Source of the DNA: a bacterium | GTDB lineage: Bacteria; Patescibacteriota; Minisyncoccia; Phycocordibacterales; UBA9973 | Length of the DNA stretch: 64,000 bases | Assembly: GCA_021824345.1 (NCBI GenBank) | Contig: JAKAKW010000011.1 | Coordinates: 9,074 to 73,073, forward strand | Reading direction: 5' to 3' | Shown: positions 1,647 through 64,000 of the stretch, in pieces | Position numbering within the stretch: position 1 is the stretch's first letter | Layout: each line of letters opens with the position of its first letter | The notes under the pieces: model-generated | The model's database searches: none | Told to the model about the DNA's origin: nothing | The model's input: the letters and a program-made list of their open reading frames with translations, nothing else | Made by a program: the position numbers and the translations under genes

Positions 1647-1771
1647 AACCGTTTTTTATAAATATGGGGTTTTCCACACGCAAATGGCGTATTTTTAATG
1701 CTTATAAAGGTATAATAAAGACTATTAATGGAAAAGAAAGACAAACAACCTGTCTAAATCAAACTATATTT

Positions 1772-46893: not shown

Positions 46894-46926
46894 GTGTTTC
46901 AACTGTTTTATTTGTATAATGTACGA

Positions 46927-48951
46927 ATGAATTTAAAAGACAAGGTTCTCAAATATGCCAGTTTCATTCTTGTACTCCTTATTCCCGTCGTATATTTCGG
47001 AGGAGCGGCATATCCGAGCATCGCGCCTAAGATTTTTTTCTTTTACGGAGCAGTTGAATTGATGGCCGCCTTTTGGATATATGCTTTACTCACCGATCCG
47101 GAGTATCGATTAACAAAGAAAACTCTCCTTTATTTTATCCCCATATTTGCCTTTGTGGCATGGATGACCGTTTCAGGCGTCATGGCGGTCAATCCGCGTT
47201 TGGCGTTCTGGGGTACCCTGGCTCGAGGAACCGGCCTTATTGTTCTTTATCACGCCTTCATTTTTTCCGTTATAATGGCGTCTCTGTTTAAGAAGTTCGG
47301 AAAGGAATATTTGTACAGGCTGATGAAATGGTTTGTGGCGGGAGGGTTTTTGCTTTCAATAACCATATGGTTTGGGGCGTCAGGTTTCAAATTGCCGTAT
47401 CAGTGGTCTCAAACCGACGGGGGAGGAGGATTGACCGGCAATTCGTCTCTTGCGGCCGCCTACCTTCTCTTTGCCATTGCTTTTGGAATAATTTTGTTGC
47501 TTTCACGCTCAGTTTCTAAGAAAGAGAAATGGCTTACTGTGGGCGCCCTTACTGTTACAATCTTTTCTCCTCTTTTTATAAACTTGGTTTTCTGGATGTT
47601 CTCCGGCCAAGGTTTGATGGGGAATGCCCGCGGAGCAACAATAGGGATGTTTTCCGGAGTGGCTGCAGCTCTTGTAATTTATGCTATTTTTTCCGGTAAA
47701 AAAACTTGGCGAGCAATTGGCATTATCCTTGTTATCGCAGGGATTGCCAGCTTTTCATATCTATGGAATCGGTTAGTTACGCCCGGCACCTCTCTTCATG
47801 AGACATTTGTCCAAGATGCTACTGGTACCCGTTTCATATTTTGGAATGTGGGAAGCGAAGTTTTACAGGATAGTCCATGGTTTGGCTACGGGCCTGAAAA
47901 TTACATGATTGCTTTCCAAAGGCATTTTGATTACCGAATGCTTGAGGCAAAATATAACCATGAGGTATGGAACGATCGGGCCCATAACATCTATTATCAG
48001 ACCGGAACGGATGGCGGATATCCTGCCATTGTTTTATACGCGCTGTTTCTGGCAGGCATTCTATTTGCATTGTATAAAGCATACAAAAAAGAACGCCTGA
48101 GTCTGAAAGAGGCGTGCATCCTTGCCGGCTTGATCGTCGGATATGTTATCCAAAATTTGGTTTATTTCGATTCCACCATATCACTCATGGCTCTTTTCCT
48201 TGTGGCAGGAACAGCATACGGATTTCAATTTGACACCGCAAAACAAAATGAGGAAGTGTGGAAACTAAAGTCTATTCCAATCCAAAAGATCACATCCGTT
48301 ATCATCTTCATATTTTTTGCCCTTGCTTTCATTGTTTTCGCCTGGAATCCTTTTATGAAAGACATAGCGTATGTAAACGCCTTTGAACATCCGTCCGAAC
48401 AATCCTTCAAAGCCCTTGAAGACGGATCTTCCATTGGGGAAGATTGGGATGTCAGCGGATTTGCCAATGATATGTATAAGTTCTATGCTTCCCATTCCTT
48501 GTCCATAAAAAGCGACAAAGCCAGAAATGAACGTGCTATTCAAAGTATTTCATACACCCTTAACTATCTTGAATGGCTGGCTCCGAGAGAGCCGTATGAT
48601 TTTCGCCTTTATGCGAGCATGGTACTTCTATACAATACCAGGACTTTCCTTTCAAATGCTTCATATGATTCCGCGCAAGCGGAACACTTGCTTGCGCTTC
48701 TGGCTCATGCGGAAAAGCTGTCTCCCGGGGACCCAGAGATGTATTGGAATGAGGCCCAGATAATGGCCTGGAAGGGCGATTTGCAAGCTGCGGCAAACGC
48801 GTATGAAAAGGCGATAGAGGTTGCGCCAAAATTGTCCGTATCGCATGAACTGCTCATTAAGTTCGCACGGGCTCTGGGCGACAAAAATCTGTATAACTTT
48901 GCGGTAGATCAGGCAAAAAAGTATGTTCCCAATTTTGTAATTCCCAATTAG
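46927..48951 (+). CDS. Wzy_C (O-antigen ligase/polymerase superfamily) membrane protein with C-terminal TPR-like domain
   Basis: Multi-TM protein with the Wzy_C signature region ...WNDRAHNIYYQTGTDGGYPAIVLY... and a periplasmic C-terminal TPR-like region. Start placed at ATG 46927 (MNLKD...) because the ATG at 46894 abuts the upstream terminator and a TATAAT lies at 46913-18. Confidence 0.8.
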   Translation: MNLKDKVLKYASFILVLLIPVVYFGGAAYPSIAPKIFFFYGAVELMAAFWIYALLTDPEYRLTKKTLLYFIPIFAFVAWMTVSGVMAVNPRLAFWGTLARGTGLIVLYHAFIFSVIMASLFKKFGKEYLYRLMKWFVAGGFLLSITIWFGASGFKLPYQWSQTDGGGGLTGNSSLAAAYLLFAIAFGIILLLSRSVSKKEKWLTVGALTVTIFSPLFINLVFWMFSGQGLMGNARGATIGMFSGVAAALVIYAIFSGKKTWRAIGIILVIAGIASFSYLWNRLVTPGTSLHETFVQDATGTRFIFWNVGSEVLQDSPWFGYGPENYMIAFQRHFDYRMLEAKYNHEVWNDRAHNIYYQTGTDGGYPAIVLYALFLAGILFALYKAYKKERLSLKEACILAGLIVGYVIQNLVYFDSTISLMALFLVAGTAYGFQFDTAKQNEEVWKLKSIPIQKITSVIIFIFFALAFIVFAWNPFMKDIAYVNAFEHPSEQSFKALEDGSSIGEDWDVSGFANDMYKFYASHSLSIKSDKARNERAIQSISYTLNYLEWLAPREPYDFRLYASMVLLYNTRTFLSNASYDSAQAEHLLALLAHAEKLSPGDPEMYWNEAQIMAWKGDLQAAANAYEKAIEVAPKLSVSHELLIKFARALGDKNLYNFAVDQAKKYVPNFVIPN

Positions 48952-50829: not shown

Positions 50830-50983
50830 GTCGGTCTTTATACTAACACCCGTTGTATTTAGTGGCAATATGTCTTAGTATAATTAAATTAATTGGGCGG
50901 AAAATGCAGGCGCGCAGAAAATGGTATAATATGAATGATCTAAAGGCAATTTTCCGAAAGTAAAAATAATAACATAAATCAAT

Positions 50984-52072
50984 ATGACAAAAAAATTTAA
51001 TAAAAGAAATCAAAAAGTAAACAAACGAGCGCTAATAATAGGCATAACGGGCCAAGACGGCTCGTATTTGGCTGAATTCCTGCTCTCTCGCGGATACGAG
51101 GTGCACGGCCTTATACGGCGCTCTTCCAGCTTCAACACGGGCCGTTTGGACGATATTTACCAGGATCCGCATGAAAGCCACCGCAGGCTCTATTTGCACT
51201 ATGGCGACCTAATTGATTCTCACAGCCTATTAAATATCATCAGCGAAAGCCAGCCGGACGAAATTTACAATCTCGGGGCGCAGAGCCATGTGCGCGTCAG
51301 CTTTGACATTCCGGAATATACCGCCGACGTGGATGCGCTGGGAACCACCCGCCTTTTGGATGCGGTGCGGGCGAGTAAACTGCCTGCAAAAATTTATCAA
51401 GCAGGATCCAGCGAGATGTTCGGGAAAGTATTGGAAACTCCGCAAAAAGAAAACACTCCATTCAACCCTCAAAGCCCCTATGCATGCGCCAAAGTATTCT
51501 CGCACTTCATTTGTAAAAATTACCGCGATTCATACGGAATGTTCATCGCCAACGGCATACTTTTCAATCATGAATCTCCCCGGCGGGGAAAAACTTTTGT
51601 GACCAAGAAAATAACCGAAGGCCTTGCGGACATAAGACTGGGGAAGAAAGACAGAATATATCTTGGGAATCTGGACGCCAAGCGCGATTGGGGATACGCG
51701 CCGGACTACGTGGAAGCAATGTGGCAGATGCTCCAGGAGGAAAAGCCGAATGATTACGTAATATCTACAGGGGAAACTCATTCAGTGCGCGAATTTGCCG
51801 AGGAAGCGGCACGTCTCATAGACATGGATCTGCAATGGAAGGGAAGCGGGCTTGAGGAGGAAGGCATAGACGCAAAGACGGGCCAAACAATCATCAGCAT
51901 TGATCCAAAGTATTACCGCCCTAGCGAGGTGGATGCCCTTCTCGGCGATAGTTCCAAGGCAAAGAAGAATCTTGGCTGGGAACCAAAAGTTAAATTCAAG
52001 GAGTTAGTGAAAATTATGATGGTAGGAGAGTTTGAAGAGAGAAAATTGGACAGTTCCGCATATTTGTCTTGA
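50984..52072 (+). CDS. gmd: GDP-mannose 4,6-dehydratase
   Basis: [34 protein letters not shown]..., GMD family. Confidence 0.9.
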
Positions 52073-53007
52073 TCATGGAAAAGAACTCCAAAATATACGT
52101 TGCCGGACATACCGGACTTGTCGGTTCGGCGATTGTACGAGAACTTAAAAAACAGGGATATGAGAATCTAATATTTAGGACTAGCAAAGAGCTAGACTTG
52201 CGCTCGCAATCAGACACCTTAGATTTTTTTAAGAAAGAACAGCCCGAGTATGTCTTTCTTGCCGCCGCCAAAGTTGGCGGTATAGGGGCAAATGATAAAT
52301 ATTCGGCGGATTTCATTAGGGACAACCTAGAGATAGAAGACAACGTAATTGACGGCAGCCACCAAGGGGGAGCAAAGAAACTGCTTTTTTTGGGCAGTTC
52401 ATGTATATATCCAAAGCTTGCTCCCCAGCCTTTAAAAGAAGAATACTTGCTCACCGGTCCGCTTGAAGAGACAAATAAAGCGTATGCGGTAGCAAAAATA
52501 GCCGGAATCACCATGTGCCAGATGTATGATAAACAGTATGGCACGAATTTTATTAGCGCCATGCCTACTAATTTGTATGGTCCCGGGGACAATTTTGATC
52601 TTGAAACTTCGCATGTTCTGCCCGCGATGATTCGGAAGTTTCATGAAGCAAAAGAAAGCGGGGCTAAAGAAGTGACACTGTGGGGCACGGGCAATCCTAA
52701 ACGAGAATTTCTGCATGTGGATGACTTGGCAAGCGCATGCGTTTTCCTTATGGAAAAGTACGATAGTCCGGAGATAATAAACGTGGGAACAGGGGAAGAT
52801 GTTTCAATAATGGAGCTGGCAGACAAAGTAAAAAAAATAATAGGGTGTTCCGGTAAAATTGTATGGGATTCAGACAAGCCCGACGGAACGCCGCGTAAGC
52901 TGCTGGATACTTCAAAAATCAATGCTCTCGGCTGGAGACCGTTAATTTCCATGGACGAAGGTATAAAATCTACATACGAGTGGTTTTTGGATAAATATGG
53001 AAAATAA
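52069..53007 (+). CDS. fcl: GDP-L-fucose synthase (GDP-4-keto-6-deoxymannose 3,5-epimerase/4-reductase)
   Basis: [15 protein letters not shown].., [14 protein letters not shown]. 4-nt overlap with gmd. Confidence 0.9.
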
Positions 53008-55015
53008 ATATGACATTGTAATAGTCGGCGCCGGAATTTCCGGCGCTACTCTGGCAGAGCGGTACGCTTCTTTAGGAAAAAAAGTGCTGGTGATAGAATC
53101 TCGGGACCATATCGGAGGAAACTGTTACGATTTCATTAATGAAGACGGAATCTTGGTGGCAAAATACGGGCCGCACTATTTTCATACGAATTATGAAGAC
53201 GTGTGGAGATATGTGAACCGTTTTTCTGAATGGGTCCCTTTTGAGGCTCGAGCCGTCAGTCATATTGACGGGAAAAAGGTTTCTTTACCCATAAACATAA
53301 AGACAATAAATCAGGTCTTTGGCTTGGAGATTAAAGAAAAAGAAGAAATGGAGAAGTGGGTAAAAGAAAATACTGAACCAAAAAGGCACCCCAGAAATTC
53401 TGAAGATGCGGCAATAGGCCGGGTAGGCAAAATCCTATATGAAAAGGTATTCAAGGAGTACACTCGAAAACAATGGGATAAGGATCCCAAGGAGCTTGAC
53501 CCTGAAGTGACAAACAGGATACCGATTCGCCTAAACGATGACGACAGGTATTTTACCGATGTCCATCAAGCCATACCAAGGGAAGGATACGCCAAGCTTT
53601 TTAAAAATATGTTAAGCAATGAAAATATAGAAGTTCGCCTCAATACCAAGTGGGAAGATGAAAAAGACAGGATTACTTACCGGGAGAAACTTTTTTTTAC
53701 GGGGAGGATTGATTCATATTTTAAAAAGAAATTCGGCCTGTTGGAATATCGCTCGCTTAAGTTTGAGTTTGAGACTTTTAACCGCGAATATTTTCAGGAA
53801 TACGTGCAGGAGAATTACCCGTCACTTAAAGTTCCCTTTACCCGAATTGTTGAATACAAGCATATGACCGGTCAGAAACATCCAAAAACGACCGTTTCCC
53901 GCGAATATCCTACTTGGGAGGGGGAGCCGTATTATCCGGTTCCTTCGACAAAAAACAGGAAGATATACGTAAAATATCAGCATGAGGCGAAAAGGTTGGA
54001 GAAGAAAAACATTTATTTTGTCGGCCGACTGGCCAATTACAAATACTTTAATATGGATCAGGCGTTCAAGAACGCCCTGGATTTGTTCTATAGGCTGGAA
54101 GGAAAGAAAGAACGCGGATCGGGGATGACGGTAAGACTCGCCGGGGGAATGGGAAACCAGATGTTTCAATACGCACTTGGCCGGAAGCTTTCAATAAAAA
54201 ACAACGTACCCTTGTATCTTGATTTGACGTTTTTAAATCACAGAGTCAAACTACCGGAGTTTTTGCGCCCTCATTTCGTTTTTCATGATTTGAAACTTGA
54301 TGTGTTTAATATCAAGGCTGACATCGCGAATCCCGCCCAAATTGGTTTTTGGAACCGTCCCTTTTTATCTGGAAAGATCATGATATTGATTGACGCGATT
54401 TTGCGCAAGCTCGCGCTCTTCCCAGGATGGGAAAAGTCATTTTCTTTTAACAAGAAAATCCTTGATTTAGGTCCTGGCACGTACCTGGAGGGATATTGGC
54501 AAAGCGAAAAATATTTCAAGGATATAAGCGAAACGCTTCGGAAAGATTTTTCCTTGAAAGCGCCCTTGTCCGGCAAGGCAGCGGAACTTTATAAAGAAAT
54601 AAGAAACTGCGCGTCCTTATGTATATTTGTGCGCAGGAAAGACATGGCAGATAAATCTTTTCACGGCACCGTGCCCATTGAGTATTACCGTGCCGGCATA
54701 GAATACATAAAGAAGCGTCAACCTATTGAAAAAATATACGTGTTTTCAGATGACAATGAATGGTGCCGGCAGAATCTGAAGTTTGAATATCCCACCTTGA
54801 TCGCCGAAAAGGAATGTTCCGGCAAGAAATGGGAAGGGCATCTTATTTTAATGAGTGCGGGCCGGAATTTCATAATCGCCAACAGTACTTTTTCCTGGTG
54901 GTCGGCATGGCTTTCAGATAACCCGAACAAGATAGTCGTTGCCCCTAAACAATGGTTTGGGAACAATAGGCTGGACGATTCCGATTTAATACCCGAAAGC
55001 TGGGTAAGATTATAA
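52997..55015 (+). CDS. Fusion ORF: UDP-galactopyranose mutase (N-terminal ~375 aa) plus GT11 alpha-1,2-fucosyltransferase (C-terminal ~295 aa)
   Basis: N-terminal [18 protein letters not shown]...[15 protein letters not shown] (Glf FAD-binding) through ...[12 protein letters not shown]. The C-terminal part begins at the internal Met of [18 protein letters not shown] (GT11 motif I) and contains VRRKD, YVFSDD and [12 protein letters not shown] motifs. Continuous frame with no stop. 11-nt overlap with fcl. Confidence 0.75.
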
Positions 55016-55090
55016 ATCTTTCATTTTAAGGATATTTATCAATTCTGATTTGTTGTTTTTATTCTTAATATAGCTTAGTATTATTTACAT

Positions 55091-55930
55091 ATGGCAAAAA
55101 AGAAACTCCGCATAGGATTTATCGGACAAGGATATATCGGGAAGAATTATGCGGATGATTTTGAACGCAGAGGATATAAAGTTACCCGATATTCAAAAGA
55201 GCGTCCTTATATCAAAAACAAAGAAGAAATCAAAGAGTGCGACGTAATATTCATAGCGGTTCCGACCCCTACGCGCCACGGATCCTTTTATGACGGAGTA
55301 TTGAGAGAAGTTATTCCTCTGGCCGGCCGAAATAAGGTTGTGGTCATCAAGTCCACTGTGAGCCCAGGCCTCACCCGCATCTTGCAAAATAAATTCAAAG
55401 ACCGCCTCATTATTCACAGTCCTGAATTTTTGAGCGAGGATACCGCCGCCAATGATGCAAGCAATCCTTTTTTTAATATTGTCGGTATAAAAAAGAATTC
55501 CCGAAAGCATAAAAAGGCGGCCTCGCTCCTTCTAACCATACTTCCTCCTTCTCCGTTTTTCTCCATAGTTTCATACGAAGAAGCCGAGCTCATAAAATAT
55601 ATTCATAATTCTATGGCCTTTACCCAAATTGTTTTTTTTAATCTTATGTATGATTTGGCCCTAAAATTTGGCGCCGATTGGGCCAATATCAACAGAGCCA
55701 TAAAAGCGGATCCGTTAATACCCAACAGGTACTCCGAACCTGTGCATAAGAGCGGAAGGGGTGCGGGCGGGCATTGTTTCATAAAGGATTTTGCAGTCAT
55801 ATCCCAGGCCTATGAAAAAGCAGTAAAGGATCCAAAAGGAATTGATGTATTGAAAAGCCTGGAAATAAAAAACATAGATCTTCTTAGAAAGAGCAAGAAG
55901 GATCTTGAATTGCTTCGTGAGATTTATTAA
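55091..55930 (+). CDS. UDP-glucose/GDP-mannose dehydrogenase-family protein, short (279 aa; C-terminal UDP-binding domain missing)
   Basis: IGFIGQGYIG (NAD-binding), VIFIAVPTPT, VVIKSTVSPG, IIHSPEFLSED, GAGGHCFIKD (catalytic Cys), as in Ugd; the ORF ends about 50 aa after the catalytic Cys. Confidence 0.55.
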   Translation: MAKKKLRIGFIGQGYIGKNYADDFERRGYKVTRYSKERPYIKNKEEIKECDVIFIAVPTPTRHGSFYDGVLREVIPLAGRNKVVVIKSTVSPGLTRILQNKFKDRLIIHSPEFLSEDTAANDASNPFFNIVGIKKNSRKHKKAASLLLTILPPSPFFSIVSYEEAELIKYIHNSMAFTQIVFFNLMYDLALKFGADWANINRAIKADPLIPNRYSEPVHKSGRGAGGHCFIKDFAVISQAYEKAVKDPKGIDVLKSLEIKNIDLLRKSKKDLELLREIY

Positions 55931-55939
55931 ATTTCCTAT

Positions 55940-56860
55940 ATGAAAAAAAACGCGGTTTCAGAAAAAATTTCGGCGGTTGTGGTAACGCATAATAGAAAAG
56001 AACTCTTAAGGAATTGTTTGAATGGAATTTTGCGGCAAACTGTCCCTGTCAACCATATCTTTATAATTGACAACGATTCTAAAGATGGTACGGAGGATAT
56101 GATCCGGGACAAATTTGGAGATAATCAGCTTGTAGAATATAGAAATCTCGGTAAAAATACCGGAAGCGCCGGTGGCTTTCATGAGGGTGTGAAGATGGCC
56201 TACGAGCGTGGATCGGAATGGATCTGGCTTATGGATGATGACGTAACACCTCGCCCTGATTGTCTGGAAAAAATGAAAAGCTACGGGCATATATCAAAAT
56301 GTATCAATGCAAACAAAGTTGATCCATCAAACAAGGAATATGAGTTCATGTTTGAAGTTATATTTGATCCTTCAATATGCAGAATGACTTTTATGAATAA
56401 TATCTCCTTTAAAAACGGCAAAGATTTTGCTTTTGTCAATGTCGGATGTTTTGAGGGAATGCTTATTCACCGAGATATTGTTGCCCAAATAGGTTTTCCT
56501 GACAAGCGATTTTTCATTTATAGCGATGATACCACTTATGGATTTATCGCTTCTCTGTATACAAATGTTATTTTTGTGAGAGATGCGTATTTTGATAAAA
56601 AAGTTTCCTTTAAAAATACTGCCACGCCGATTTTTTCATATTACGCGATTCGAAACCAATTCTTACTTAAGGAATACCTAAAGAAATACGGCATTTATAA
56701 TGCGCGCCTGTTTTATCTTGGAATAGCATTATTCGCCGGTCTGGCTGCCACCAAGCAGGCGGTTAGAAGCAGAGACATCAAGATACCATGGTATGTTCTT
56801 CGGGGATTATTTGACGGCTTAAGGGGAAAGTTTTATCAGATTGGGACACACAGAAAATGA
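55940..56860 (+). CDS. Family 2 glycosyltransferase
   Basis: ISAVVVTHNRKELL...IFIIDNDSKDGT (DxD) ...WIWLMDDD, GT-A fold GT2 motifs. Confidence 0.8.
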   Translation: MKKNAVSEKISAVVVTHNRKELLRNCLNGILRQTVPVNHIFIIDNDSKDGTEDMIRDKFGDNQLVEYRNLGKNTGSAGGFHEGVKMAYERGSEWIWLMDDDVTPRPDCLEKMKSYGHISKCINANKVDPSNKEYEFMFEVIFDPSICRMTFMNNISFKNGKDFAFVNVGCFEGMLIHRDIVAQIGFPDKRFFIYSDDTTYGFIASLYTNVIFVRDAYFDKKVSFKNTATPIFSYYAIRNQFLLKEYLKKYGIYNARLFYLGIALFAGLAATKQAVRSRDIKIPWYVLRGLFDGLRGKFYQIGTHRK

Positions 56861-59019
56861 ATCTTTCCTGGGAAAAGATAAACAAGGGACTTTTACTTCT
56901 TGGACTTGTTGCCCTGCTATATAGGGAAGGGAACTTTGCCGGCACGTTTATACCAAAGCCCTTTGAAATAATATTTGTGATCTTGTGTGTTTCCACAGCT
57001 CTTTTCATGTTAAAGGGCTCAAAAATGAAGGATTTTTTCGCATCAATACCGAGAAAAATATTAATTGCCGTATGTGTAATGTTGGGGTCAGTATTTCTGG
57101 GATGGATTTCGGCTTCATTGTCCGGCATGAAGCCCAATTTCAATATGATTTTGGAGCTAGGAACTTTTTTAATCGGAATTGGCATTTTTCTTTTGATTCT
57201 TTTTTATGCTCAGGGGAACAAAGCGTATGCGCGATATTGCTTATATGCCATGCTGGTTCCGGCGATATATGCTTTTTTTATTTTCCTGTATCCCGGCACA
57301 TATCTTGGCATAAATTTAAAAATACATTTCCTGGGTTTTACGATAAATCCGAATACCATTTCAAAGATCTTATTGATCCCGGCAATGTTTTTTGTTTCTT
57401 ATTCATTATTCGAGCATCGGAACAAATGGATAAAGGCTCTGTATATTTTCTTGTCCGCTTCCATGGTTTCTCTAATATTCTGGACGGGGTCAAGAGGGTC
57501 TTTGGTAAGCCTTATAATAGGAATGGGTTTCATTTTAGTCGTATACATATTTCATGAATTCACCTGGAAAAAAATCTTCTTCGGTTCCGGAGTAATCTTA
57601 GCTATACTTATTTTGGGTCAGGGGATGTTGCCCATAGATCGACAGGAGGCATTCGTGCACAGAGTGGTCCTCACTTTTATTCATCAGCCGAATATAGTTT
57701 CCACCTTGCGAGAATATACTACTGGGGTAGTTATATATCAGAATAAAGAGGAAGAATTGGAAGGAACGATTGACATAAAACTCGTTGAGCCTAGGCTCAT
57801 TGCGTGGCCGTTCTATTTGAAATATGTGCTTCTTCATCCCCTTGGCATAGGTCCGGATACGCACAAAGATTTCGGACTTGTAGATAAAAAAGGCAATCCA
57901 ATAAATTCAGGTCCTCATAACACCTATCTTGAAATATGGCTGTGGGGAGGCATACTAGGCATCCTAAGTTTCATATACTTATTGTATTGCGCTTTTAAAA
58001 ACTTAACGGAAAGGATCAAATCTTCCTTCAGCCTGACAAATATTGCGCTACTGGCGATTCTTTTTGCTTTATCCGTATCTATTTTCTTTGATGACAGTCT
58101 TTCATTTTATTGGTTTTTCATAATCTTGGCGTTTGCCTTAATTGAAAAGGAGACTATTGCGGTCAGCATGCATATGGGAAAAGAAGAGCTAGATATTTTT
58201 GCAAAGCTGAGTTGGAACTTCAAAACGGTTTTTGATGTTGGTTCAAGAGACGATATTGATTATTTTAAGATAAAAAACGACTGCGAGTATCATTTGTTCG
58301 AACCTAATACGGAGGCTATTGCCTCAATAAAACGGAAAATTTCGAATTTAGGCGAGCACAATATAATTCTCAATGAATTCGGACTATCAGACGCCGACAA
58401 AGACAACTGCGTTTATTACAAGAACGTTCAGTCATTTATCCCGCATTGGAGTTTAGCCTCTTTTGACACTGGCGAACGTTTTTCTCTGCGTAAAATGGAT
58501 GATTATGTGGAAAATCACGGCATATCCTTCATTGATTTTCTGAAAATAGACGTTGAAGGAATGGATTATCAAGTAATACTCGGGGGCATAAATACTATTA
58601 AGCGGAACAACAAAGTATCTTTTATCCAGCTGGAATGTTCCGGTGGCAGCAGGCAATATATCGAGCTTCTGGATAATTTTGATTTTTACTTAATTATGGA
58701 TCCTAGTCTGCTGAAAGTGATCAATACTTTAAACAGAACAGGCATCGACTTCAACAAGCAATTGATCAAGATGGATGAGGATGTAATAATTTTTTTGGAT
58801 AAGACTATGGCTGAAACTGGCGCCGCGGCTTGTATTTTAGGAGTGAATAAAAACATTGATTTTTCTTTAATAATTCAAGAAAGAAAACTGGCATACAGCA
58901 TAGTTTCCGTGAACAAATCGTACAGTGGAATGGCTCTGGATTATTTTAAGATCTTATACGGTATCAAAAGGCGCTTGCGGAAAATAAGGAAGACGGTCAA
59001 AAATTTCCTCTTTACTTGA
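56857..59019 (+). CDS. Fusion ORF: Wzy_C (O-antigen ligase/polymerase-like) membrane domain plus C-terminal FkbM-family methyltransferase domain
   Basis: About 430 aa with 10 or more TM helices and the Wzy_C region (GSRGSLVSL...SGPHNTYLEIWLWGGILG). From about residue 440, FkbM-type MTase motifs (FDVGSRDDIDYF...FEPN......KIDVEGMDYQVILG). No stop between the two parts. Confidence 0.7.
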   Translation: MNLSWEKINKGLLLLGLVALLYREGNFAGTFIPKPFEIIFVILCVSTALFMLKGSKMKDFFASIPRKILIAVCVMLGSVFLGWISASLSGMKPNFNMILELGTFLIGIGIFLLILFYAQGNKAYARYCLYAMLVPAIYAFFIFLYPGTYLGINLKIHFLGFTINPNTISKILLIPAMFFVSYSLFEHRNKWIKALYIFLSASMVSLIFWTGSRGSLVSLIIGMGFILVVYIFHEFTWKKIFFGSGVILAILILGQGMLPIDRQEAFVHRVVLTFIHQPNIVSTLREYTTGVVIYQNKEEELEGTIDIKLVEPRLIAWPFYLKYVLLHPLGIGPDTHKDFGLVDKKGNPINSGPHNTYLEIWLWGGILGILSFIYLLYCAFKNLTERIKSSFSLTNIALLAILFALSVSIFFDDSLSFYWFFIILAFALIEKETIAVSMHMGKEELDIFAKLSWNFKTVFDVGSRDDIDYFKIKNDCEYHLFEPNTEAIASIKRKISNLGEHNIILNEFGLSDADKDNCVYYKNVQSFIPHWSLASFDTGERFSLRKMDDYVENHGISFIDFLKIDVEGMDYQVILGGINTIKRNNKVSFIQLECSGGSRQYIELLDNFDFYLIMDPSLLKVINTLNRTGIDFNKQLIKMDEDVIIFLDKTMAETGAAACILGVNKNIDFSLIIQERKLAYSIVSVNKSYSGMALDYFKILYGIKRRLRKIRKTVKNFLFT

Positions 59020-60931
59020 AAAGCTTCCGGTATTTATCCTTGTTTTTCAAAACGTAGTCCGGCAAATCTGATTCGTCGGTCCAGTATTTGAATTTTCGGC
59101 CTCGATAATCCACGTTTTTATTCACTCTATCTTCTAAAGTTTCCAGCCAGTCTGCATAGGCTGGGTGCCGCCATTCCGCCATTTTTCTTTTTGCTCCTTC
59201 CACTCCTCCCATAAATCCGAAATGCCATCCGCCATCGTTAACCTCGGCATATCTAGTCTTTTTTCTGGTACGCAGATCATTCAGGCAATTTTCTTTTATA
59301 GTTTTGTATTGAACGGCAATTGTCCCCGTCCAACCGTTTACTTCGTTACAACGATTGTTTAAATAGTAATAGTATGCAAGCTGCTTTGGGCGGATTATCT
59401 CGCTTTTTGAAAAATCGGTAAGCCCTTTTAATTTTATTGGGTTCCATATTTCATCCAAGTCGGACACAAATACCACGTCCGTGTCATTCAGATTAAGCTT
59501 CGCAAGTGCTTTTTTCGCGCTTTCTTTCTGATAGAATTCCCGTACCCAGTAATGCTCTCCGGCGCCTACGTTGCTGTTATTCTTTGCCATTTCAAACAAG
59601 GAAGTGTCTTTAGGAAAATCATTCACCACGTAATAGGTTATCTTGTCTTTCCATTTTGCGAACCGCTCCTTGTGTTTCTCGTATTGCAGTTCATGGGGCA
59701 TTCCGGAAAAAGTTTCCGTGCTCTCCACGATCACGAATTGGTCCACGTAATCGTTCAATATATTAAGCCTGATTTCCAGGAGATCAAGTTCATTGAGCAG
59801 ATAAAACAGGTCGTATACCTTGATCCTTTTCTTATATTCGTCCAGTTCTATTTTTGATACCCAGGCCTTTTGCCTGACTTTTTCTTTTTTCAGTTCAAGG
59901 GAAGTTCTTACGAAGTTTTTTGCGCTCTGCATCTTGTAAATCACCGCCCTGGCGGCCCTTCTGGCGCTTTTCGGAAGCAATTGTTTGGCTTTTGCCTTCA
60001 TGCCTTTTGGGGCCGGCATGAAAACGGGAGCCTGATTTTGATAATAATCTTTATGTCTTTCCATATACGCCTTCAGTTCCTTTAAGCATGTATCATAATC
60101 GTTGAGATTCCCTTCCCGGTCCAGGTAATTCCACCCTTTCGTAATGTTGTATCCCAGGCTCCAGTATCCGTCCGAAACGTTGTGCCTGCCCCAATATTTC
60201 GGTGCAATGCAGAATTTTAGACTCTCGCTAAGCCAGGCGGGAAACCAAGCGAAGCTGGAATTGGACATGATGAGATAATGGGCGTTTTTAACCACGACAT
60301 AATCCTTTGCAATACTGAAATGAAATACCCCGAAATCCGGGAAGAATTTTTTGGCTGTTGAAACATCTTCGGTAATTACAATGAATCGGAAATTCGGATT
60401 GATTTTTCGCATATGCCTTACGGCATCTTCCCAATATTCTTTTCTCAAAAAAAATTCCGGATGCCTGACATACTCTCCGCCCCGGAAATTTATGACGCAG
60501 GTGTTGTCATCGGCGTAGTCATAGCATTCATATTCTTCCTTCACCTGGAGCCATTTTTTTATTTCATCCTTTCGGTGAAAAATATATTGCTCGTCTTGCA
60601 TTAATCCGTCTATTTTTGTGCCATCTTTAATGTTTACCAGATTTTTGTCATATGTTCTGATGTCTGCTCCGGAAAATGGGTGGATGATTTTTCTTTCAGT
60701 GTAATAATACTGCATGCCTTCGGGCAAGGTTTTGGGCGGTCCGCCCTCCGGGCCTTTTCCGCCTGTCACCTTACATCCGAAATCAAGATTCATAAAATTT
60801 CCCGCCTTAAATTTTTCAGGGGATTTGATACCAAAATCATATCCATTATCTAAGGAAAAAACTCTCGTTGCCACATAGCAGGCAAGCTGGTTGCCCAGTC
60901 CTTGGCCGTTGTATAACTCTGTAATTATCAT
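59012..60931 (-). CDS. Two-domain glycosyltransferase: N-terminal GT11-like domain plus C-terminal GT17-like (MGAT3-type) domain
   Basis: N-terminal GQGLGNQLACYV, FRGGEYV, MSNSSFAWFPAWL mirror GT11 motifs I/II/IV. C-terminal FYLLNELDLLEIRLNILNDYVDQFVIVESTETFSG..., TDVVFVSDLDEIW, GGWHFGFMGG, PDYVLKNKDKY parallel Glyco_transf_17 blocks (NHEFDLLDVRF..VVDAFVVCESNFT, DDVFIIDDADEIP, GWHCSWCF, PKYLLKNYDRF, recalled from memory). Confidence 0.7.
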   Translation of the reverse strand: MIITELYNGQGLGNQLACYVATRVFSLDNGYDFGIKSPEKFKAGNFMNLDFGCKVTGGKGPEGGPPKTLPEGMQYYYTERKIIHPFSGADIRTYDKNLVNIKDGTKIDGLMQDEQYIFHRKDEIKKWLQVKEEYECYDYADDNTCVINFRGGEYVRHPEFFLRKEYWEDAVRHMRKINPNFRFIVITEDVSTAKKFFPDFGVFHFSIAKDYVVVKNAHYLIMSNSSFAWFPAWLSESLKFCIAPKYWGRHNVSDGYWSLGYNITKGWNYLDREGNLNDYDTCLKELKAYMERHKDYYQNQAPVFMPAPKGMKAKAKQLLPKSARRAARAVIYKMQSAKNFVRTSLELKKEKVRQKAWVSKIELDEYKKRIKVYDLFYLLNELDLLEIRLNILNDYVDQFVIVESTETFSGMPHELQYEKHKERFAKWKDKITYYVVNDFPKDTSLFEMAKNNSNVGAGEHYWVREFYQKESAKKALAKLNLNDTDVVFVSDLDEIWNPIKLKGLTDFSKSEIIRPKQLAYYYYLNNRCNEVNGWTGTIAVQYKTIKENCLNDLRTRKKTRYAEVNDGGWHFGFMGGVEGAKRKMAEWRHPAYADWLETLEDRVNKNVDYRGRKFKYWTDESDLPDYVLKNKDKYRKLFK

Positions 60932-61554
60932 AAGTAATCCTTCGGGATATAAACTCCTGCCTCTTTAACGTAATCGTCTACATTATTGGGCACCACATCC
61001 GGGCGCGTTCTTTTTGCCAACTCAAACATAGTCTTGCGGCCGGTTCCCAAATACTCCAGCGAGCTGGTTTTTCTGTCCCATTCTTTTACTCTTTTGGCCA
61101 GAAGTTCGGCAATCACATCCACATAATCTCCTTGGGTATATTGATCAATGTAAGCCATAGGGAAAGGGAAAGGATTCGGTTTGAACAACGTGCGCAAAAT
61201 AAGGTGCCGGGGATGCGCCTCTACTATCTCCTCGGCCAGCTTTTTACTTAAAGCGTATACGCTGAACGGATATTTTGCAGACTCGCTGGAAACGTATATG
61301 AAAGGCGTGTTTTTGTAGTGGCTTATCAGATTAAAAGTGCCATAAACGTTTACCATAAAACATTTTTCTTTATCTTCATGCTCGGCCCTGCGCACGTCCG
61401 TGTACGCGCCCGCATGCACAATCAGATCATATTCCGCTTCCGGTATTTTCCCGGTAAAGTCAAAGTCTTCTGTTCCGACATAGTGCCCCGCAAGATGTTT
61501 TTGCAGTTCTTTGCCCAGCCGGCCGGTTCCTCCCGTGATTAATATTTTATTCAT
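60928..61554 (-). CDS. NAD(P)-binding short epimerase/reductase-like protein (RmlD-like)
   Basis: ILITGGTGRLG Rossmann start and a YALSK (YxxxK) motif; 208 aa. Confidence 0.55.
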   Translation of the reverse strand: MNKILITGGTGRLGKELQKHLAGHYVGTEDFDFTGKIPEAEYDLIVHAGAYTDVRRAEHEDKEKCFMVNVYGTFNLISHYKNTPFIYVSSESAKYPFSVYALSKKLAEEIVEAHPRHLILRTLFKPNPFPFPMAYIDQYTQGDYVDVIAELLAKRVKEWDRKTSSLEYLGTGRKTMFELAKRTRPDVVPNNVDDYVKEAGVYIPKDYL

Positions 61555-62233
61555 GATATTTTTTCTTCATATATTTAATTTCTTTCCTTTTTTCCCAAAA
61601 GCCTAAATGTTTGGTTGTCTGGTGCTTTCCAAGCCCGATGATAACGTTTATGTTGTTTAAAACGGTCGGCTCTCCATATTTTTCATAAAGTCTTTGGTAA
61701 TAATCGCAATCCAGCACCCAGGTCAAATTTTCATTAAACCATAAAGGATTTTCATTTGTAATGGCAAGCACCGAAGGGCTCCCTATGGTATTTTCCCCCA
61801 TTTTTAACTTATTATTGAAAGATGGGAAATGCGGTTTCATTATTTTGCCATTTTTTTCACTGTGCGCGCAGGCGGTAACCAACCAATGGCCCTTGAAATT
61901 ATCCACAACCTCCTTTAAAGAATTTTCTCCGCTCAAAAAATCGTCCATATATAATATTTTTATCAATTTTCCGGAGGCGGCCCTTATTGCTTCGTTGGTG
62001 TTTGCCGATATTCCTTTTCTCGGATTCTTGGAGTATTTAATATTTAACGAAGCATATTCCGGCCTCTCGCAGAAATTCTTTATGTCATCATTATCGGAAT
62101 TATCGGAAACTACTACTTCAAAATCTTTGAATGTCTGCTTTTTAAGCATATCAAAGCTCCTGGAGAGCAATTCAATGGCTCTACCATGCGCCTCAAAAGT
62201 CGGTATGCATACGCTTACGGCCGTTGTTCCCAT
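61547..62233 (-). CDS. Family 2 glycosyltransferase
   Basis: VSVCIPTFEAHGRAIELL...FEVVVSDNSDNDD...ILYMDDF: GT2 DxD pattern. Confidence 0.8.
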   Translation of the reverse strand: MGTTAVSVCIPTFEAHGRAIELLSRSFDMLKKQTFKDFEVVVSDNSDNDDIKNFCERPEYASLNIKYSKNPRKGISANTNEAIRAASGKLIKILYMDDFLSGENSLKEVVDNFKGHWLVTACAHSEKNGKIMKPHFPSFNNKLKMGENTIGSPSVLAITNENPLWFNENLTWVLDCDYYQRLYEKYGEPTVLNNINVIIGLGKHQTTKHLGFWEKRKEIKYMKKKYHE

Positions 62234-62291
62234 GAGAAAATATTATCATGTATTTACCTTATATGCATTCGTAGGATATAATTGACGGGTT

Positions 62292-63182
62292 ATGGTCCAA
62301 AAAACTTTACGGGAAAGAATTTCCTACGGCATAAGGTTTAGACTACAGAGCATGTTTTTGAGGTGCTTCGCCATTTTTAATTATTTAAGGTCTAATGGCA
62401 ATGTGTATGATGAACCGTCGGTGTGCGCTTTCTATCAATGCTACAAGAGGCCCAAATGTGTCATTACTGTCCTTGATTCATTCAGGAAGGTATATCCCTC
62501 AGGCACAGTTCATTTGTTTTGCGATCAGGGGGACGATATGAGCCATATAGCCGCGCATTTCAATTGCAAGTATGAGTACATGACCAACAGATCCGGAAAC
62601 GGCACCACGCTTTTTTTCTTATCCAAAGAGCGGTTGATGTCTTATCTGGATAGATTGCTGTATGCCGCGCAAAATTCAAAAGAGGATTTTATGATGATTC
62701 TGGAAGACGACTCTTTGGTTCTTGGGAAAATAAGGAAGCTGAAATTCGATTGGAATTGCATCAAATCAAACCACCATTACAGCGGGGGAGGGGTAACTTC
62801 AATATTAAGGATCCGAAACAAATCCATCCCTTGGTATGTTCGGAATATGTACTTTGCCGGCTGGGGAGGAGTGATGCTCAATAGGGCTTTTTTTGTTGAG
62901 CACTTTTCTGACAAGGAAAAGCTTTCGGATGCGATTGACATATTATCTCCGCAGATACAGATGCAGTGGGAGGGAGCGTTGCCTATGGACGCCATCGTAA
63001 CCGCTCTCATTATTTATTTCGGCGGTACGGTTGGGTGGTATCCGGGTTTTGCCGAAACCCAATATTGGAGATATAAGCTCAGACCTCTCTTTGGAAAGAT
63101 TGACGTTGTGCACAATGCAAAAAGCTTTTACAATTCTCCGATGTCAATAGAAGAAGAAAAAATATTTTATGGCAATCAATGA
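62292..63182 (+). CDS. Hypothetical protein (possible nucleotide-diphospho-sugar transferase)
   Basis: 296-aa ORF in a glycosyltransferase neighbourhood with a DDS motif (ILEDDS); no confident family assignment. Confidence 0.45.
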   Translation: MVQKTLRERISYGIRFRLQSMFLRCFAIFNYLRSNGNVYDEPSVCAFYQCYKRPKCVITVLDSFRKVYPSGTVHLFCDQGDDMSHIAAHFNCKYEYMTNRSGNGTTLFFLSKERLMSYLDRLLYAAQNSKEDFMMILEDDSLVLGKIRKLKFDWNCIKSNHHYSGGGVTSILRIRNKSIPWYVRNMYFAGWGGVMLNRAFFVEHFSDKEKLSDAIDILSPQIQMQWEGALPMDAIVTALIIYFGGTVGWYPGFAETQYWRYKLRPLFGKIDVVHNAKSFYNSPMSIEEEKIFYGNQ

Positions 63183-63850
63183 TAGTCTGTGGTATATTCT
63201 CCATTATTCTTTAAGTCAATCCTTATACGTGCTGCTGCTCTTAAAATACTATATGGAATTTCCTGTTTTTTCACATCTCCTTTTTTCGAATAGTTTAGCA
63301 ATCTTTCCGCTTCTGCCACAAGACGCTTTCTCGTATCTAGATCATCCATGTCTAATGGTTCGTCAGCTGGGCAGTTTATGTATTTGATCTCCGGGTGTTG
63401 TTCTTGAAAAGTGGCCCAAGCCCTGCGCTGGTGAATAGGGCGGGAAACTATGATAATCTGCTTTGGATCTATGCCGTTTTTCCTTATGAAAGGAATAGCT
63501 TCTCTCGCCTCTACTAGAGTGTTATCCGAAATGCTTTCTGTCAAGATGGCCTCAGGAGGCACTTTCAGCTTTTCTAATACTTCTTTGTACTTCTCATTTT
63601 CAGGGACCTCCCAGTCTTTGTTGCTGAATGATCCTTTTGTGGCAATAGCGACTACATGCTCGGAATACCCCTTCTTGTATAGTTCAGCCCCCTTCTCCGC
63701 TGGACCGACGGTAGATCCGCCAAATAGGAAGATTGCATCTGATCTTTCAGGTTTATCTTCTACTTTTAAATACTCAAAGAATGTCTGCATCGCCTTTTTC
63801 AGCTCCTCTTTTTTTTCGCTTTCATTTTTGTTGCTTATTTCTTCATTCAT
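63176..63850 (-). CDS. DUF218 (YdcF/ElyC/SanA-like) protein
   Basis: ...SDAIFLFGGSTVGPAEKGAELYKKGYSEHVVAIATKG...IIIVSRPIHQRRA... matches the DUF218 pattern. Confidence 0.65.
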   Translation of the reverse strand: MNEEISNKNESEKKEELKKAMQTFFEYLKVEDKPERSDAIFLFGGSTVGPAEKGAELYKKGYSEHVVAIATKGSFSNKDWEVPENEKYKEVLEKLKVPPEAILTESISDNTLVEAREAIPFIRKNGIDPKQIIIVSRPIHQRRAWATFQEQHPEIKYINCPADEPLDMDDLDTRKRLVAEAERLLNYSKKGDVKKQEIPYSILRAAARIRIDLKNNGEYTTDYH

Positions 63851-64000
63851 ATTATTTTTGATTTATCAATATTTTTGAAGATCTTTATATTGTAATAATA
63901 ATCGTTTGAAAAATCTCCATATTCATCTATATGTTTGTATATATCCCTGACGATATCCTCTATGCCGTATCTTGGGGCATATTCAAGGACTGATTCGGCT
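63851..64000 (-). CDS. Partial CDS (C-terminal 49 aa; stop TGA overlaps the DUF218 start as ATGA), unknown function
   Basis: Reverse-strand frame ...AESVLEYAPRYGIEDIVRDIYKHIDEYGDFSNDYYYNIKIFKNIDKSKII* runs in from the window edge. Confidence 0.35.

What the first reader, a model, noticed from the sequence alone, without database searches (positions are those of the whole stretch)
59012..60931. Two-domain glycosyltransferase combining a GT11-like and a GT17-like (MGAT3-type bisecting-GlcNAc transferase) domain
The C-terminal 330 aa align block-by-block, from memory, with the animal GnT-III family (ELDLLEIRL...DYVDQFVIVES..TF; DVVFVSDLDEIW; GGWHFGFMGG; PDYVLKNKDKY). GT17 homologs are scarce in bacteria. 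The N-terminal about 270 aa carry degenerate GT11 motifs (GQGLGNQLACYV / FRGGEYV / MSNSSFAWFPAWL). A single polypeptide with two distinct inverting-GT folds implies synthesis of two adjacent linkages of the glycan by one enzyme.
Basis: partly seen in the sequence, partly recalled or inferred. Interest (0 to 1): 0.5.

Follow-up and report, generated by a model that had tools for sequence, protein, structure and literature searches.

The report
Fused GT11-like and GT17 glycosyltransferase
This gene in an uncultured Patescibacteria (CPR) genome really does join a fucosyltransferase-like domain to a GnT-III-family (GT17) domain, but it is one of hundreds of such uncharacterised fusions that sit in surface-sugar gene clusters, so it is a solid but fairly ordinary find.

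Summary
The 639-aa ORF at 59012..60931 (-) is real, and every quoted motif is present. Pfam places aa 353-588 in GT17 (90.7 bits, cut-off 26) and aa 109-270 in GT11 (27.0 bits, cut-off 23.9). A profile-profile comparison with canonical GT11 neighbours (99.6 %, E 2e-24, 242 columns) and fold searches of a good AlphaFold model (pLDDT 88) confirm two modules. One is a fucosyltransferase-type GT-B (NodZ, FUT8, POFUT) and the other is a GT-A with an invariant DLD motif. A basic helical linker joins them and there is no membrane span.

The rarity claim fails. There are more than 100 full-length homologues, 73 loci in species-representative genomes and about 7,000 GT17-domain cluster representatives. 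In Citrifermentans and Thiobacillaceae the same two modules are separate neighbouring genes with a DUF3431 gene between them. In CPR, DUF3431 or an FkbM methyltransferase is often inserted at the linker. DUF3431 models as a GT-A-like fold.

The window's cluster also encodes GDP-fucose synthesis (Gmd, Fcl), a Glf-GT11 fusion, GT2s and Wzy_C proteins. The best reading is a bifunctional cytoplasmic enzyme that adds two sugars to a lipid-linked surface glycan. Donor and acceptor specificities are unknown, and an MGAT3-type bisecting activity is unlikely.

The parts
59012..60931 (-). Whole ORF, 639 aa plus stop codon: a two-module glycosyltransferase.
   Evidence: ORF. Pfam GT17 and GT11 both above cut-off. 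AlphaFold2 model with mean pLDDT 88.4.
60047..60931 (-). N-terminal module, aa 1-295: a divergent GT11-type domain with a fucosyltransferase-superfamily GT-B-like fold.
60470..60487 (-). FRGGEY (aa 149-154), the counterpart of GT11 motif I (HxRRGDY). R150, G151 and Y154 are invariant. The second Arg is replaced by Gly and Asp by Glu.
   Evidence: hhalign column alignment. Invariant columns. Coordinates checked.
59822..60046 (-). Inter-module linker, aa 296-370: strongly basic (20 K+R against 5 D+E), modelled as a long helix (311-367). It is the site where homologues carry DUF3431 or FkbM inserts.
   Evidence: Charge and hydrophobic-moment calculation, and a basic linker in the homologues inspected. 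Secondary structure. Insert positions.
59015..59821 (-). C-terminal module, aa 371-639: GT17-family domain with a GT-A fold.
59453..59461 (-). D491-L-D493, the DxD-type motif at the end of strand 486-491. Both Asp residues are invariant in 50 homologues.
   Evidence: Invariant columns. Strand position in the model. Coordinates checked.
60928..61554 (-). Upstream gene in the same operon: a short (208 aa) RmlD-like SDR. Its stop codon overlaps the start of the fusion gene.
   Evidence: Pfam RmlD_sub_bind 56 bits. Overlap visible in the sequence. A homologue lies upstream on the same strand in 19 loci.
61547..62233 (-). First gene of the operon: a GT2 glycosyltransferase (228 aa), the most conserved neighbour of the fusion.
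   Evidence: Pfam Glycos_transf_2 52 bits. A homologue lies upstream on the same strand in 53 of 72 loci.
56857..59019 (+). Convergent neighbour: a Wzy_C (O-antigen ligase/polymerase-like) membrane protein fused to an FkbM methyltransferase. In other genomes the FkbM part is inserted into the GT11-GT17 protein or lies directly downstream of it.
   Evidence: Pfam Wzy_C 53 bits and Methyltransf_21 50 bits. P0054-type GT11-FkbM-GT17 proteins. tblastn positions of FkbM hits.
50984..53007 (+). GDP-L-fucose pathway: Gmd (50984-52072) and an Fcl-like protein (52069-53007).
   Evidence: NCBIfam gmd 545.6 bits (cut-off 415). GDP-L-fucose synthase 482.4 bits, just under its cut-off of 500.
52997..55015 (+). 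UDP-galactopyranose mutase fused to a canonical GT11 domain, the second GT11-type module of the cluster.
   Evidence: NCBIfam UDP-GALP_mutase 367.6 bits (cut-off 303.75). Pfam GT11 84.1 bits at aa 495-670.

Best explanation
The gene encodes a soluble, probably peripherally membrane-associated, bifunctional glycosyltransferase of a Patescibacteria (Paceibacterota/Nomurabacteria-like) genome.

The N-terminal module (aa 1-295) is a divergent member of the GT11 / alpha-fucosyltransferase superfamily. It is an inverting, metal-independent GT-B variant that would use a GDP-activated 6-deoxyhexose, most likely GDP-L-fucose made by the Gmd and Fcl genes 6-9 kb away.

The C-terminal module (aa 371-639) is a GT17-family GT-A enzyme. 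It is inverting, binds a divalent metal through D491-x-D493, and would use a UDP-sugar, possibly a HexNAc by analogy with GnT-III.

The two modules add two sugars, probably successive ones, to the same undecaprenyl-(pyro)phosphate-linked oligosaccharide on the cytoplasmic face of the membrane. They would work together with the co-transcribed GT2, a separate DUF3431 (GT-A-like) protein, an FkbM methyltransferase and a second, canonical GT11. The product would then be polymerised or ligated by the adjacent Wzy_C-type proteins onto a surface glycan or glycoprotein.

Shown: the domain families, the folds, the conserved motifs, the absence of a membrane span, the conserved gene partnership and the fusion history. 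Inferred: that both modules are active, the donors, the acceptor, the order of action, the membrane association through the basic linker, and the final destination of the glycan.
For: Domain identity.

Conserved catalytic-type motifs across 50 homologues of 48-80 % identity: R150/G151/Y154 of motif I, N224/F227 of the SNSSF motif, D491/D493, and G568-W569-H570.

The N module is the more conserved half, with a median of 65 % identity against 48 % for the C module in 119 homologues. That argues against a decayed domain.

There is no hydrophobic segment (maximum 19-residue Kyte-Doolittle mean 0.99). The linker has 20 K+R against 5 D+E, and the linkers of the homologues inspected are similarly basic.

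Gene-fusion logic: in Citrifermentans bremense R1 and a Thiobacillaceae MAG the two modules are separate genes of one operon. The order is GT2, GT11-like, DUF3431, (methyltransferase), GT17, (methyltransferase), canonical GT11. In CPR they are fused directly (81 of 119 homologues) or with DUF3431 or FkbM between them (38 of 119).

Both modules co-occur in nearly all of the 73 loci. A canonical GT11 lies within 8 kb in about 50 of 73 loci. The GT2 lies upstream in 53 of 72. DUF3431 is present in 47 of 74 loci.

GDP-fucose genes are in the window and near the fusion in 14-17 of 72 other loci. The operon shows translational coupling through overlapping stop and start codons.
Against: No member of this family, and no bacterial GT17, has been assayed (PMC4202792; literature searches).

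Motif I of the N module has lost the His, the second Arg and the Asp of HxRRGDY. The Pfam GT11 score is only 3 bits above the cut-off. It falls below the cut-off in the stand-alone Citrifermentans orthologue, at 17 bits. The donor may therefore not be GDP-fucose.

True Gmd and Fcl genes are near the fusion in only about a fifth of loci, although the flanks were limited to 8 kb. The canonical GT11 next door could be the real fucosyltransferase.

No initiating phosphoglycosyltransferase, Wzx flippase or ABC exporter was found among the ORFs scanned: those of at least 120 aa in 43-64 kb plus selected larger ORFs elsewhere in the window. The lipid-linked route is therefore assumed, not seen.

The fold tools do not report which query residues were matched. 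Assigning hits to the N or C module rests on fold class and aligned length.
Confidence: 0.6

Rival explanations
1. Only the GT17 module is catalytic. The N-terminal GT11-like module is a degenerate pseudo-enzyme that binds the acceptor glycan or nucleotide, or acts as a scaffold or targeting domain.
For: Pfam GT11 is only 27.0 bits against a cut-off of 23.9. Only 35 of 50 homologues reach E<=0.01. Motif I reads N-F-R-G-G-E-Y instead of H-x-R-R-G-D-Y.
Against: The N module is the more strongly conserved half, with a median of 65 % identity against 48 %. The remaining motif residues are invariant: G9-x-G11-x-G13-N14-Q15, R150, G151, Y154, N224 and F227. It also exists as a stand-alone 330-aa gene in other phyla. 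The homology spans the whole GT11 domain, 242 columns.
Confidence: 0.12
2. Both modules are active, but the N module is not a fucosyltransferase. It transfers another sugar, for example a different GDP-6-deoxyhexose or a dTDP- or UDP-sugar made by the many SDR enzymes of the cluster. The canonical GT11 domains nearby would do the fucosylation.
For: Motif I is divergent. A canonical GT11 accompanies the fusion in about 50 of 73 loci, and in the window it appears as the Glf-GT11 fusion. True Gmd and Fcl are close by in only 14-17 of 72 loci. The extended locus holds dTDP-sugar genes and several epimerases or dehydratases.
Against: The closest families by sequence and fold are all GDP-fucose-dependent: GT11, NodZ/GT23, GT37 and POFUTs. 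The first Arg of motif I is kept; from general knowledge of FUT8 and alpha1,2-FucT mutagenesis it is the one that contacts GDP (not tested here). GDP-fucose synthesis genes are present in this window.
Confidence: 0.2
3. The C module is a true functional equivalent of animal MGAT3, adding beta1,4-GlcNAc to a beta-linked mannose ('bisecting' activity).
For: Strong GT17 family membership. The only activity known for the family is EC 2.4.1.144 (PMC7014118; my recollection of CAZy).
Against: No bacterial MGAT equivalent is known and bacterial GT17 members are uncharacterised (PMC4202792). PF04724 genes are also present in plants and fungi, so family membership does not by itself fix the activity (PMC5225481). 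Identity to the family is remote: only 216 of 348 model positions are matched. Nothing in the window indicates a beta-mannoside acceptor.
Confidence: 0.06

Closest known systems
GT17 / GnT-III (MGAT3, Pfam PF04724)
   Same: Significant family match (90.7 bits). The blocks NELDLLEIRL, VIVES, SDLDEIW, GGWH and LPDYVLKNKDKY are present. The model has a GT-A fold and a DxD-type motif, as proposed for GnT-III (PMC7014118).
   Different: There is no type-II membrane anchor or stem. The domain is fused to a second GT. The context is a prokaryotic cytoplasmic one inside a surface-polysaccharide cluster. Activity is unknown and no N-glycan core acceptor is expected.
GT11 bacterial alpha-1,2-fucosyltransferases (the FutC/WbsJ/WbgL type, PF01531)
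   Same: Homologous over the whole domain (hhalign 99.6 %). It shares the N-terminal G-x-LGNQ motif, the R-x-G-[DE]-Y core of motif I and the SNSSF(A/S)WW/F-AWL motif. GDP-fucose genes are in the same cluster. NCBI already names some homologues 'alpha-1,2-fucosyltransferase'.
   Different: The Pfam score is marginal. The His, the second Arg and the Asp of HxRRGDY are replaced. It forms a separate, tightly conserved subfamily that always travels with a GT17 gene or domain. Donor and linkage are untested.
Multi-module bacterial glycan synthases (for example chondroitin polymerase K4CP, heparosan synthase PmHS2 and WbbM, which appeared among the fold-search hits)
   Same: One polypeptide carries two glycosyltransferase active sites that act on one growing glycan. 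These proteins appear among the fold-search hits.
   Different: Those enzymes are polymerases or O-antigen enzymes built from other families (GT2, GT45 and others). Here a GT-B-type GT11-like module is joined to a GT-A GT17 module by a basic helix, and nothing indicates processive polymerisation.
DUF3431 (PF11913)
   Same: It is the domain inserted between the two modules in 38 of 119 close homologues. It is encoded as a separate gene about 9.5 kb from the fusion in this genome, outside the window.

Membership tests
GT17 (Glyco_transf_17, PF04724) | Sequence match to the family HMM above the curated gathering score. | tested here: met
   90.7 bits against 26, E 1.3e-25, aa 353-588 on model positions 56-271 of 348. 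50 of 50 homologues match.
GT17 (Glyco_transf_17, PF04724) | GT-A fold with a DxD-type metal and nucleotide-sugar motif. | tested here: met
   [not shown]
GT17 (Glyco_transf_17, PF04724) | Beta-1,4-GlcNAc transfer to the beta-mannose of N-glycans (EC 2.4.1.144), the only characterised activity of the family. | not testable with these tools
   This needs an enzyme assay. The genomic context gives no hint of a beta-mannoside acceptor.
GT17 (Glyco_transf_17, PF04724) | Type-II Golgi membrane topology (a feature of the animal enzymes, not a requirement of the family). | tested here: not met
   There is no hydrophobic segment: the maximum 19-residue hydropathy is 0.99.
GT11 (Glyco_transf_11, PF01531) | Sequence match to the family HMM above the gathering score. 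| tested here: met
   27.0 bits against 23.9, a narrow pass, over aa 109-270 only. 35 of 50 homologues reach E<=0.01. The stand-alone orthologue in L068 scores only 17.1 bits, below the cut-off.
GT11 (Glyco_transf_11, PF01531) | Homology over the whole catalytic domain to bona fide GT11 proteins. | tested here: met
   hhalign of the N-module alignment against an alignment of about 50 canonical GT11 neighbours gives probability 99.6 %, E 2.3e-24, with 242 columns aligned (query 1-249, template 1-276). One representative, from L068, scores 113 Pfam bits.
GT11 (Glyco_transf_11, PF01531) | Motif I, H-x-R-R-G-D-Y (GDP-fucose binding). | tested here: inconclusive
   The aligned sequence is N-F-R-G-G-E-Y. 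The first Arg, the Gly and the Tyr are kept and invariant. His becomes Asn, the second Arg becomes Gly and Asp becomes Glu.
GT11 (Glyco_transf_11, PF01531) | Fucosyltransferase-superfamily GT-B-variant fold. | tested here: met
   [not shown]
GT11 (Glyco_transf_11, PF01531) | Alpha-1,2-fucosyl transfer from GDP-L-fucose. | not testable with these tools
   The only evidence is contextual: Gmd and an Fcl-like gene are in the same cluster.

The most novel reading that the evidence does not exclude
The window's protein would be one form of a conserved, mobile set of three transferases: a GT11-like module, DUF3431 and GT17, usually accompanied by a GT2, a methyltransferase and a canonical GT11. The set is found fused or unfused in Patescibacteria, an Altiarchaeales archaeon, Thiobacillaceae, Elusimicrobia, Chitinophagaceae and the cultured Citrifermentans bremense. 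It would build one conserved, methylated, deoxyhexose-containing oligosaccharide motif. On this reading DUF3431 is an unrecognised GT-A glycosyltransferase family. The prokaryotic GT17 proteins would define the broader function of a family known biochemically only from animal GnT-III.
Probability: 0.3. Interest if true: 0.5.

Novelty: new member of a known kind. Interest (0 to 1): 0.3.

Why it matters
Only one activity is known for GT17, animal GnT-III. The family has no solved structure (PMC7014118; no PDB match), and its bacterial members are uncharacterised (PMC4202792).

This family offers small, soluble, anchor-free GT17 domains that could be expressed for structure and specificity work. 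A cultured bacterium, Citrifermentans bremense R1, carries the same modules as separate genes, which would allow genetics.

The family also shows how genome-reduced Patescibacteria pack operon neighbours into multi-enzyme polypeptides for surface-glycan synthesis. It gives a first functional lead for DUF3431.

For the genome scan itself, this is a correct domain call on an otherwise ordinary glycan-cluster enzyme. It is not a rarity.

Tried and rejected
- NCBIfam gave no named family for the fusion.
- Sequence and profile searches of the PDB found nothing usable for either module. The DUF3431 profile gave only chance-level hits.
- The AlphaFold-database fold library (afdb50) was not available. 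A direct structural comparison with modelled MGAT3, and a taxonomic survey through AFDB, could therefore not be made.
- No phylogeny of the GT17 domain against eukaryotic members was built. The homology tools returned only the nearest, prokaryotic or metagenomic, sequences and carry no taxonomy.
- Promoter and terminator scans around the operon were not above the shuffled expectation and were not used.
- No tRNA or Rfam element is present in the window.
- A first count of Gmd and Fcl neighbours was inflated by cross-hits among SDR paralogues (median 25 % identity). It was redone with identity thresholds.
It was repeated with accepted sequences.
- Literature searches for GT17 in bacteria, for DUF3431, for PF04724 and for Patescibacteria fucosyltransferases found no characterisation of this family.
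- A horizontally acquired eukaryote-like gene was rejected as the main explanation, because the family is broad and deep within prokaryotes.


Full report
**Observation**

The window holds a single ATG-initiated ORF at 59012..60931 on the minus strand, 639 aa. The start is well defined. Met1 is invariant in 50 homologues. The ATG overlaps the stop codon of the upstream gene (ATGA) and is preceded by AAGGA.

It gives Glyco_transf_11 at E 3.4e-6, 27.0 bits (cut-off 23.9) for aa 109-270. NCBIfam has no model for the protein, and no solved structure is detectable by sequence or profile.

**Anatomy**

An AlphaFold2 model built on 50 homologues is confident, with mean pLDDT 88.4. It shows three parts:
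- an alpha/beta N-terminal module, aa 1-295;
- a long helix, aa 311-367, within a linker of aa 296-370;
- a C-terminal alpha/beta module, aa 371-639.

The linker has 20 Lys+Arg against 5 Asp+Glu. The linkers of the homologues inspected are similarly basic, although their sequence and length vary (75-142 residues). The protein has no hydrophobic segment that could span a membrane.

**The N-terminal module**

Pfam sees only the C-terminal half of GT11, and only just. I therefore collected the canonical GT11 proteins that lie next to homologues of the fusion in other genomes. One of them, from L068, scores 113 bits on Pfam GT11. I compared profile with profile. The result was 99.6 % probability, E 2.3e-24, with 242 aligned columns that cover the whole GT11 domain.

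The alignment pairs three motifs:
- G-Q-G-L-G-N-Q-L with G-G-L-G-N-Q-M;
- N-F-R-G-G-E-Y with H-V-R-R-G-D-Y;
- S-N-S-S-F-A-W-F-P-A-W-L with A-N-S-S-F-S-W-W-G-A-W-L.

R150, G151, Y154, N224 and F227 are invariant.

The N module is thus a real but divergent GT11 relative. It keeps part of the GDP-binding motif but not all of it.

**The C-terminal module**

The literature held here says that GnT-III is proposed to be GT-A with a DxD motif and has no solved structure (PMC7014118). It also says that GT17 lacks the xED catalytic Asp of most inverting GT-A families (PMC7185993). The catalytic base therefore cannot be named.

**How common it is**

The exact protein is in NCBI on a 219-kb contig of the MAG GCA_027428375.1 (DAICBP010000002.1) and on 11 other contigs. 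The methionyl-tRNA synthetase of the window is 70-75 % identical to proteins named Candidatus Paceibacterota, Nomurabacteria or Minisyncoccia. The host is therefore a Patescibacteria (CPR) bacterium.

The big protein search returned 599 hits. Of the best 120, 81 have the same two-module plan and 38 have a third domain in the linker. A few carry source names such as 'alpha-1,2-fucosyltransferase' or 'DUF3431 domain-containing protein'.

A scan of one genome per species found 73 loci. Most are in Patescibacteria. Others are in an Altiarchaeales archaeon (40 % identity over the full length), Thiobacillaceae, Elusimicrobia, Chitinophagaceae and the cultured Citrifermentans bremense R1.

The GT17 module alone matches 7,016 cluster representatives at E<=1e-3, 3,967 at 1e-10 and 180 at 1e-30. 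Many of these are 250-300-aa stand-alone proteins and some belong to 1,000-2,250-aa proteins. That library has no taxonomy. Taken together with the genome scan, the statement that GT17 is scarce in bacteria does not hold.

**A conserved module and a fusion history**

tblastn of the two halves against the 73 loci shows that they travel together almost everywhere. They are contiguous, separated by 0.7-0.9 kb, or a few kb apart.

In Citrifermentans bremense R1 the genes are separate and in this order:
- GT2-DUF5672;
- GT11-like (330 aa);
- DUF3431 (285 aa);
- GT17 (323 aa, 96 bits);
- a class-I methyltransferase;
- canonical GT11 (113 bits);
- an epimerase.

A Thiobacillaceae MAG has the same order, with a methyltransferase between DUF3431 and GT17.

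In CPR the DUF3431 domain is inserted exactly between the end of the N module (residue 297) and the basic linker. Other variants carry an FkbM methyltransferase at that place, or a SAM methyltransferase after GT17. Three-domain proteins P0003, P0004 and P0006 are 76-79 % identical to the window protein in both modules. That is as close as the nearest two-domain relatives apart from P0001 and P0002. The middle domain is therefore gained or lost among close relatives.

In the window's own genome DUF3431 is a separate gene about 9.5 kb away, beyond the window's end. The FkbM domain is fused to the convergent Wzy_C protein at 56857..59019.

Counts over the loci (flanks limited to 8 kb):

| Partner | Loci |
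|---|---|
| Canonical GT11 within 8 kb | about 50 of 73 |
| Homologue of the GT2 at 61547, upstream on the same strand | 53 of 72 |
| DUF3431 | 47 of 74, of which 37 between the two modules |
| True Gmd | 14 of 72 |
| True Fcl | 17 of 72 |

**Genomic context in the window**

The fusion is the last gene of a three-gene minus-strand operon with overlapping stop and start codons: GT2 (61547..62233), a short RmlD-like SDR (60928..61554), and the fusion.

On the other side lie these genes:
- Wzy_C-FkbM (56857..59019);
- a GT2 whose best NCBIfam hit is GlfT1 (55940..56860);
- a short nucleotide-sugar dehydrogenase;
- a UDP-galactopyranose mutase fused to a canonical GT11 (52997..55015);
- an Fcl-like protein (482 bits against a cut-off of 500);
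- Gmd (546 bits against a cut-off of 415);
- two more SDR enzymes;
- a second Wzy_C protein (46894..48951).

The public contig continues with dTDP-sugar genes. GC falls from about 0.49 to about 0.40 across this cluster. No initiating phosphoglycosyltransferase, Wzx or ABC exporter turned up among the ORFs I scanned. These were the ORFs of at least 120 aa in 43-64 kb plus selected larger ORFs elsewhere in the window.

**Mechanism proposed**

I commit to a bifunctional cytoplasmic glycosyltransferase. The GT11-like module would transfer a GDP-activated 6-deoxyhexose, most likely L-fucose. The GT17 module would transfer a UDP-sugar with the help of a divalent metal bound at D491/D493. Both would act on the same lipid-linked oligosaccharide, with the basic helix holding the enzyme at the membrane surface. 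The glycan would be methylated by the FkbM domain and handed to the Wzy_C proteins.

The families, folds, motifs and gene partnerships are shown. Activity of both modules, donors, acceptor, order of action and membrane binding are inferred.

The main rivals are:
- the N module uses a donor other than GDP-fucose (0.2);
- the N module is non-catalytic (0.12), which its higher conservation (65 % against 48 % median identity) argues against;
- the GT17 module is a true bisecting GlcNAc transferase (0.06), which nothing in the context supports.

**Comparison with what is known, and verdict**

The protein is a member of GT17 by sequence, fold and motif. It is a divergent member, or close relative, of GT11. 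Multi-module glycosyltransferases are a familiar kind, and this architecture is already abundant in public data, partly under a generic fucosyltransferase name.

I found no paper that describes or assays it, or any bacterial GT17 (PMC4202792). I therefore file it as a new member of a known kind, with modest interest (0.3).

The more interesting reading is that the GT11-like / DUF3431 / GT17 set is a conserved three-transferase module, and that DUF3431 is an unrecognised GT-A family. The evidence does not exclude this reading, but it needs biochemistry.

Noticed in passing
window 38214-40415 (-): The RecA gene (733 aa) is interrupted by an intein carrying a LAGLIDADG_2 homing endonuclease. Pfam gives RecA 428 bits in two stretches, LAGLIDADG_2 76 bits at aa 338-510 and Intein_splicing at aa 232-592.
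   Followed up: no
window 22399-26016 (+): A class-I aminoacyl-tRNA synthetase of 1,205 aa (tRNA-synt_1 in two stretches, plus Anticodon_1) has a histidine-phosphatase domain (His_Phos_1, 119 bits) inserted at aa 539-699. This is an unusual insertion.
   Followed up: no
window 52997-55015 (+): UDP-galactopyranose mutase (NCBIfam 367.6 bits, above cut-off) is fused to a canonical GT11 domain (Pfam 84 bits). In other loci the two parts also occur as separate adjacent hits.
   Followed up: partly
window 56857-59019 (+) and 46894-48951 (+): There are two Wzy_C (O-antigen ligase/polymerase-like) membrane proteins in one cluster. The first is fused to an FkbM methyltransferase. Elsewhere that FkbM domain is inserted into the GT11-GT17 protein (P0054 type) or lies directly downstream of it.
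   Followed up: partly
[not shown]
   Followed up: partly
window 55091-55930 (+): This nucleotide-sugar dehydrogenase is only 279 aa and matches the family model over positions 71-282 of 413. It appears to lack the C-terminal domain and part of the N-terminal domain, so it may be truncated or split.
   Followed up: no
window about 50000-64000 compared with 8000-48000: GC content falls from about 0.48-0.51 to 0.39-0.42 across the glycan cluster. This would be consistent with a variable or horizontally exchanged island (my interpretation).
   Followed up: no
window 713-1540 (+) and 1664-7399 (+): A small protein carries a Por_Secre_tail (T9SS C-terminal sorting) domain. Next to it is a 1,911-aa CARDB/fibronectin-III surface protein. 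The sorting domain seemed unexpected to me in a Patescibacteria genome.
   Followed up: no
L018 2842-4830 (Candidatus Altiarchaeales archaeon A3, contig MTER01000057.1): A full-length two-module homologue, 40 % identical over residues 1-630, sits on a 5.7-kb contig assigned to an archaeal MAG. This is either inter-domain transfer or a binning error.
   Followed up: no
proteins P0141-P0143, P0148, P0149, P0181: GT17 domains 34-36 % identical to this one occur inside very large proteins of 1,400-2,250 aa of unknown origin in the metagenomic representative library.
   Followed up: no
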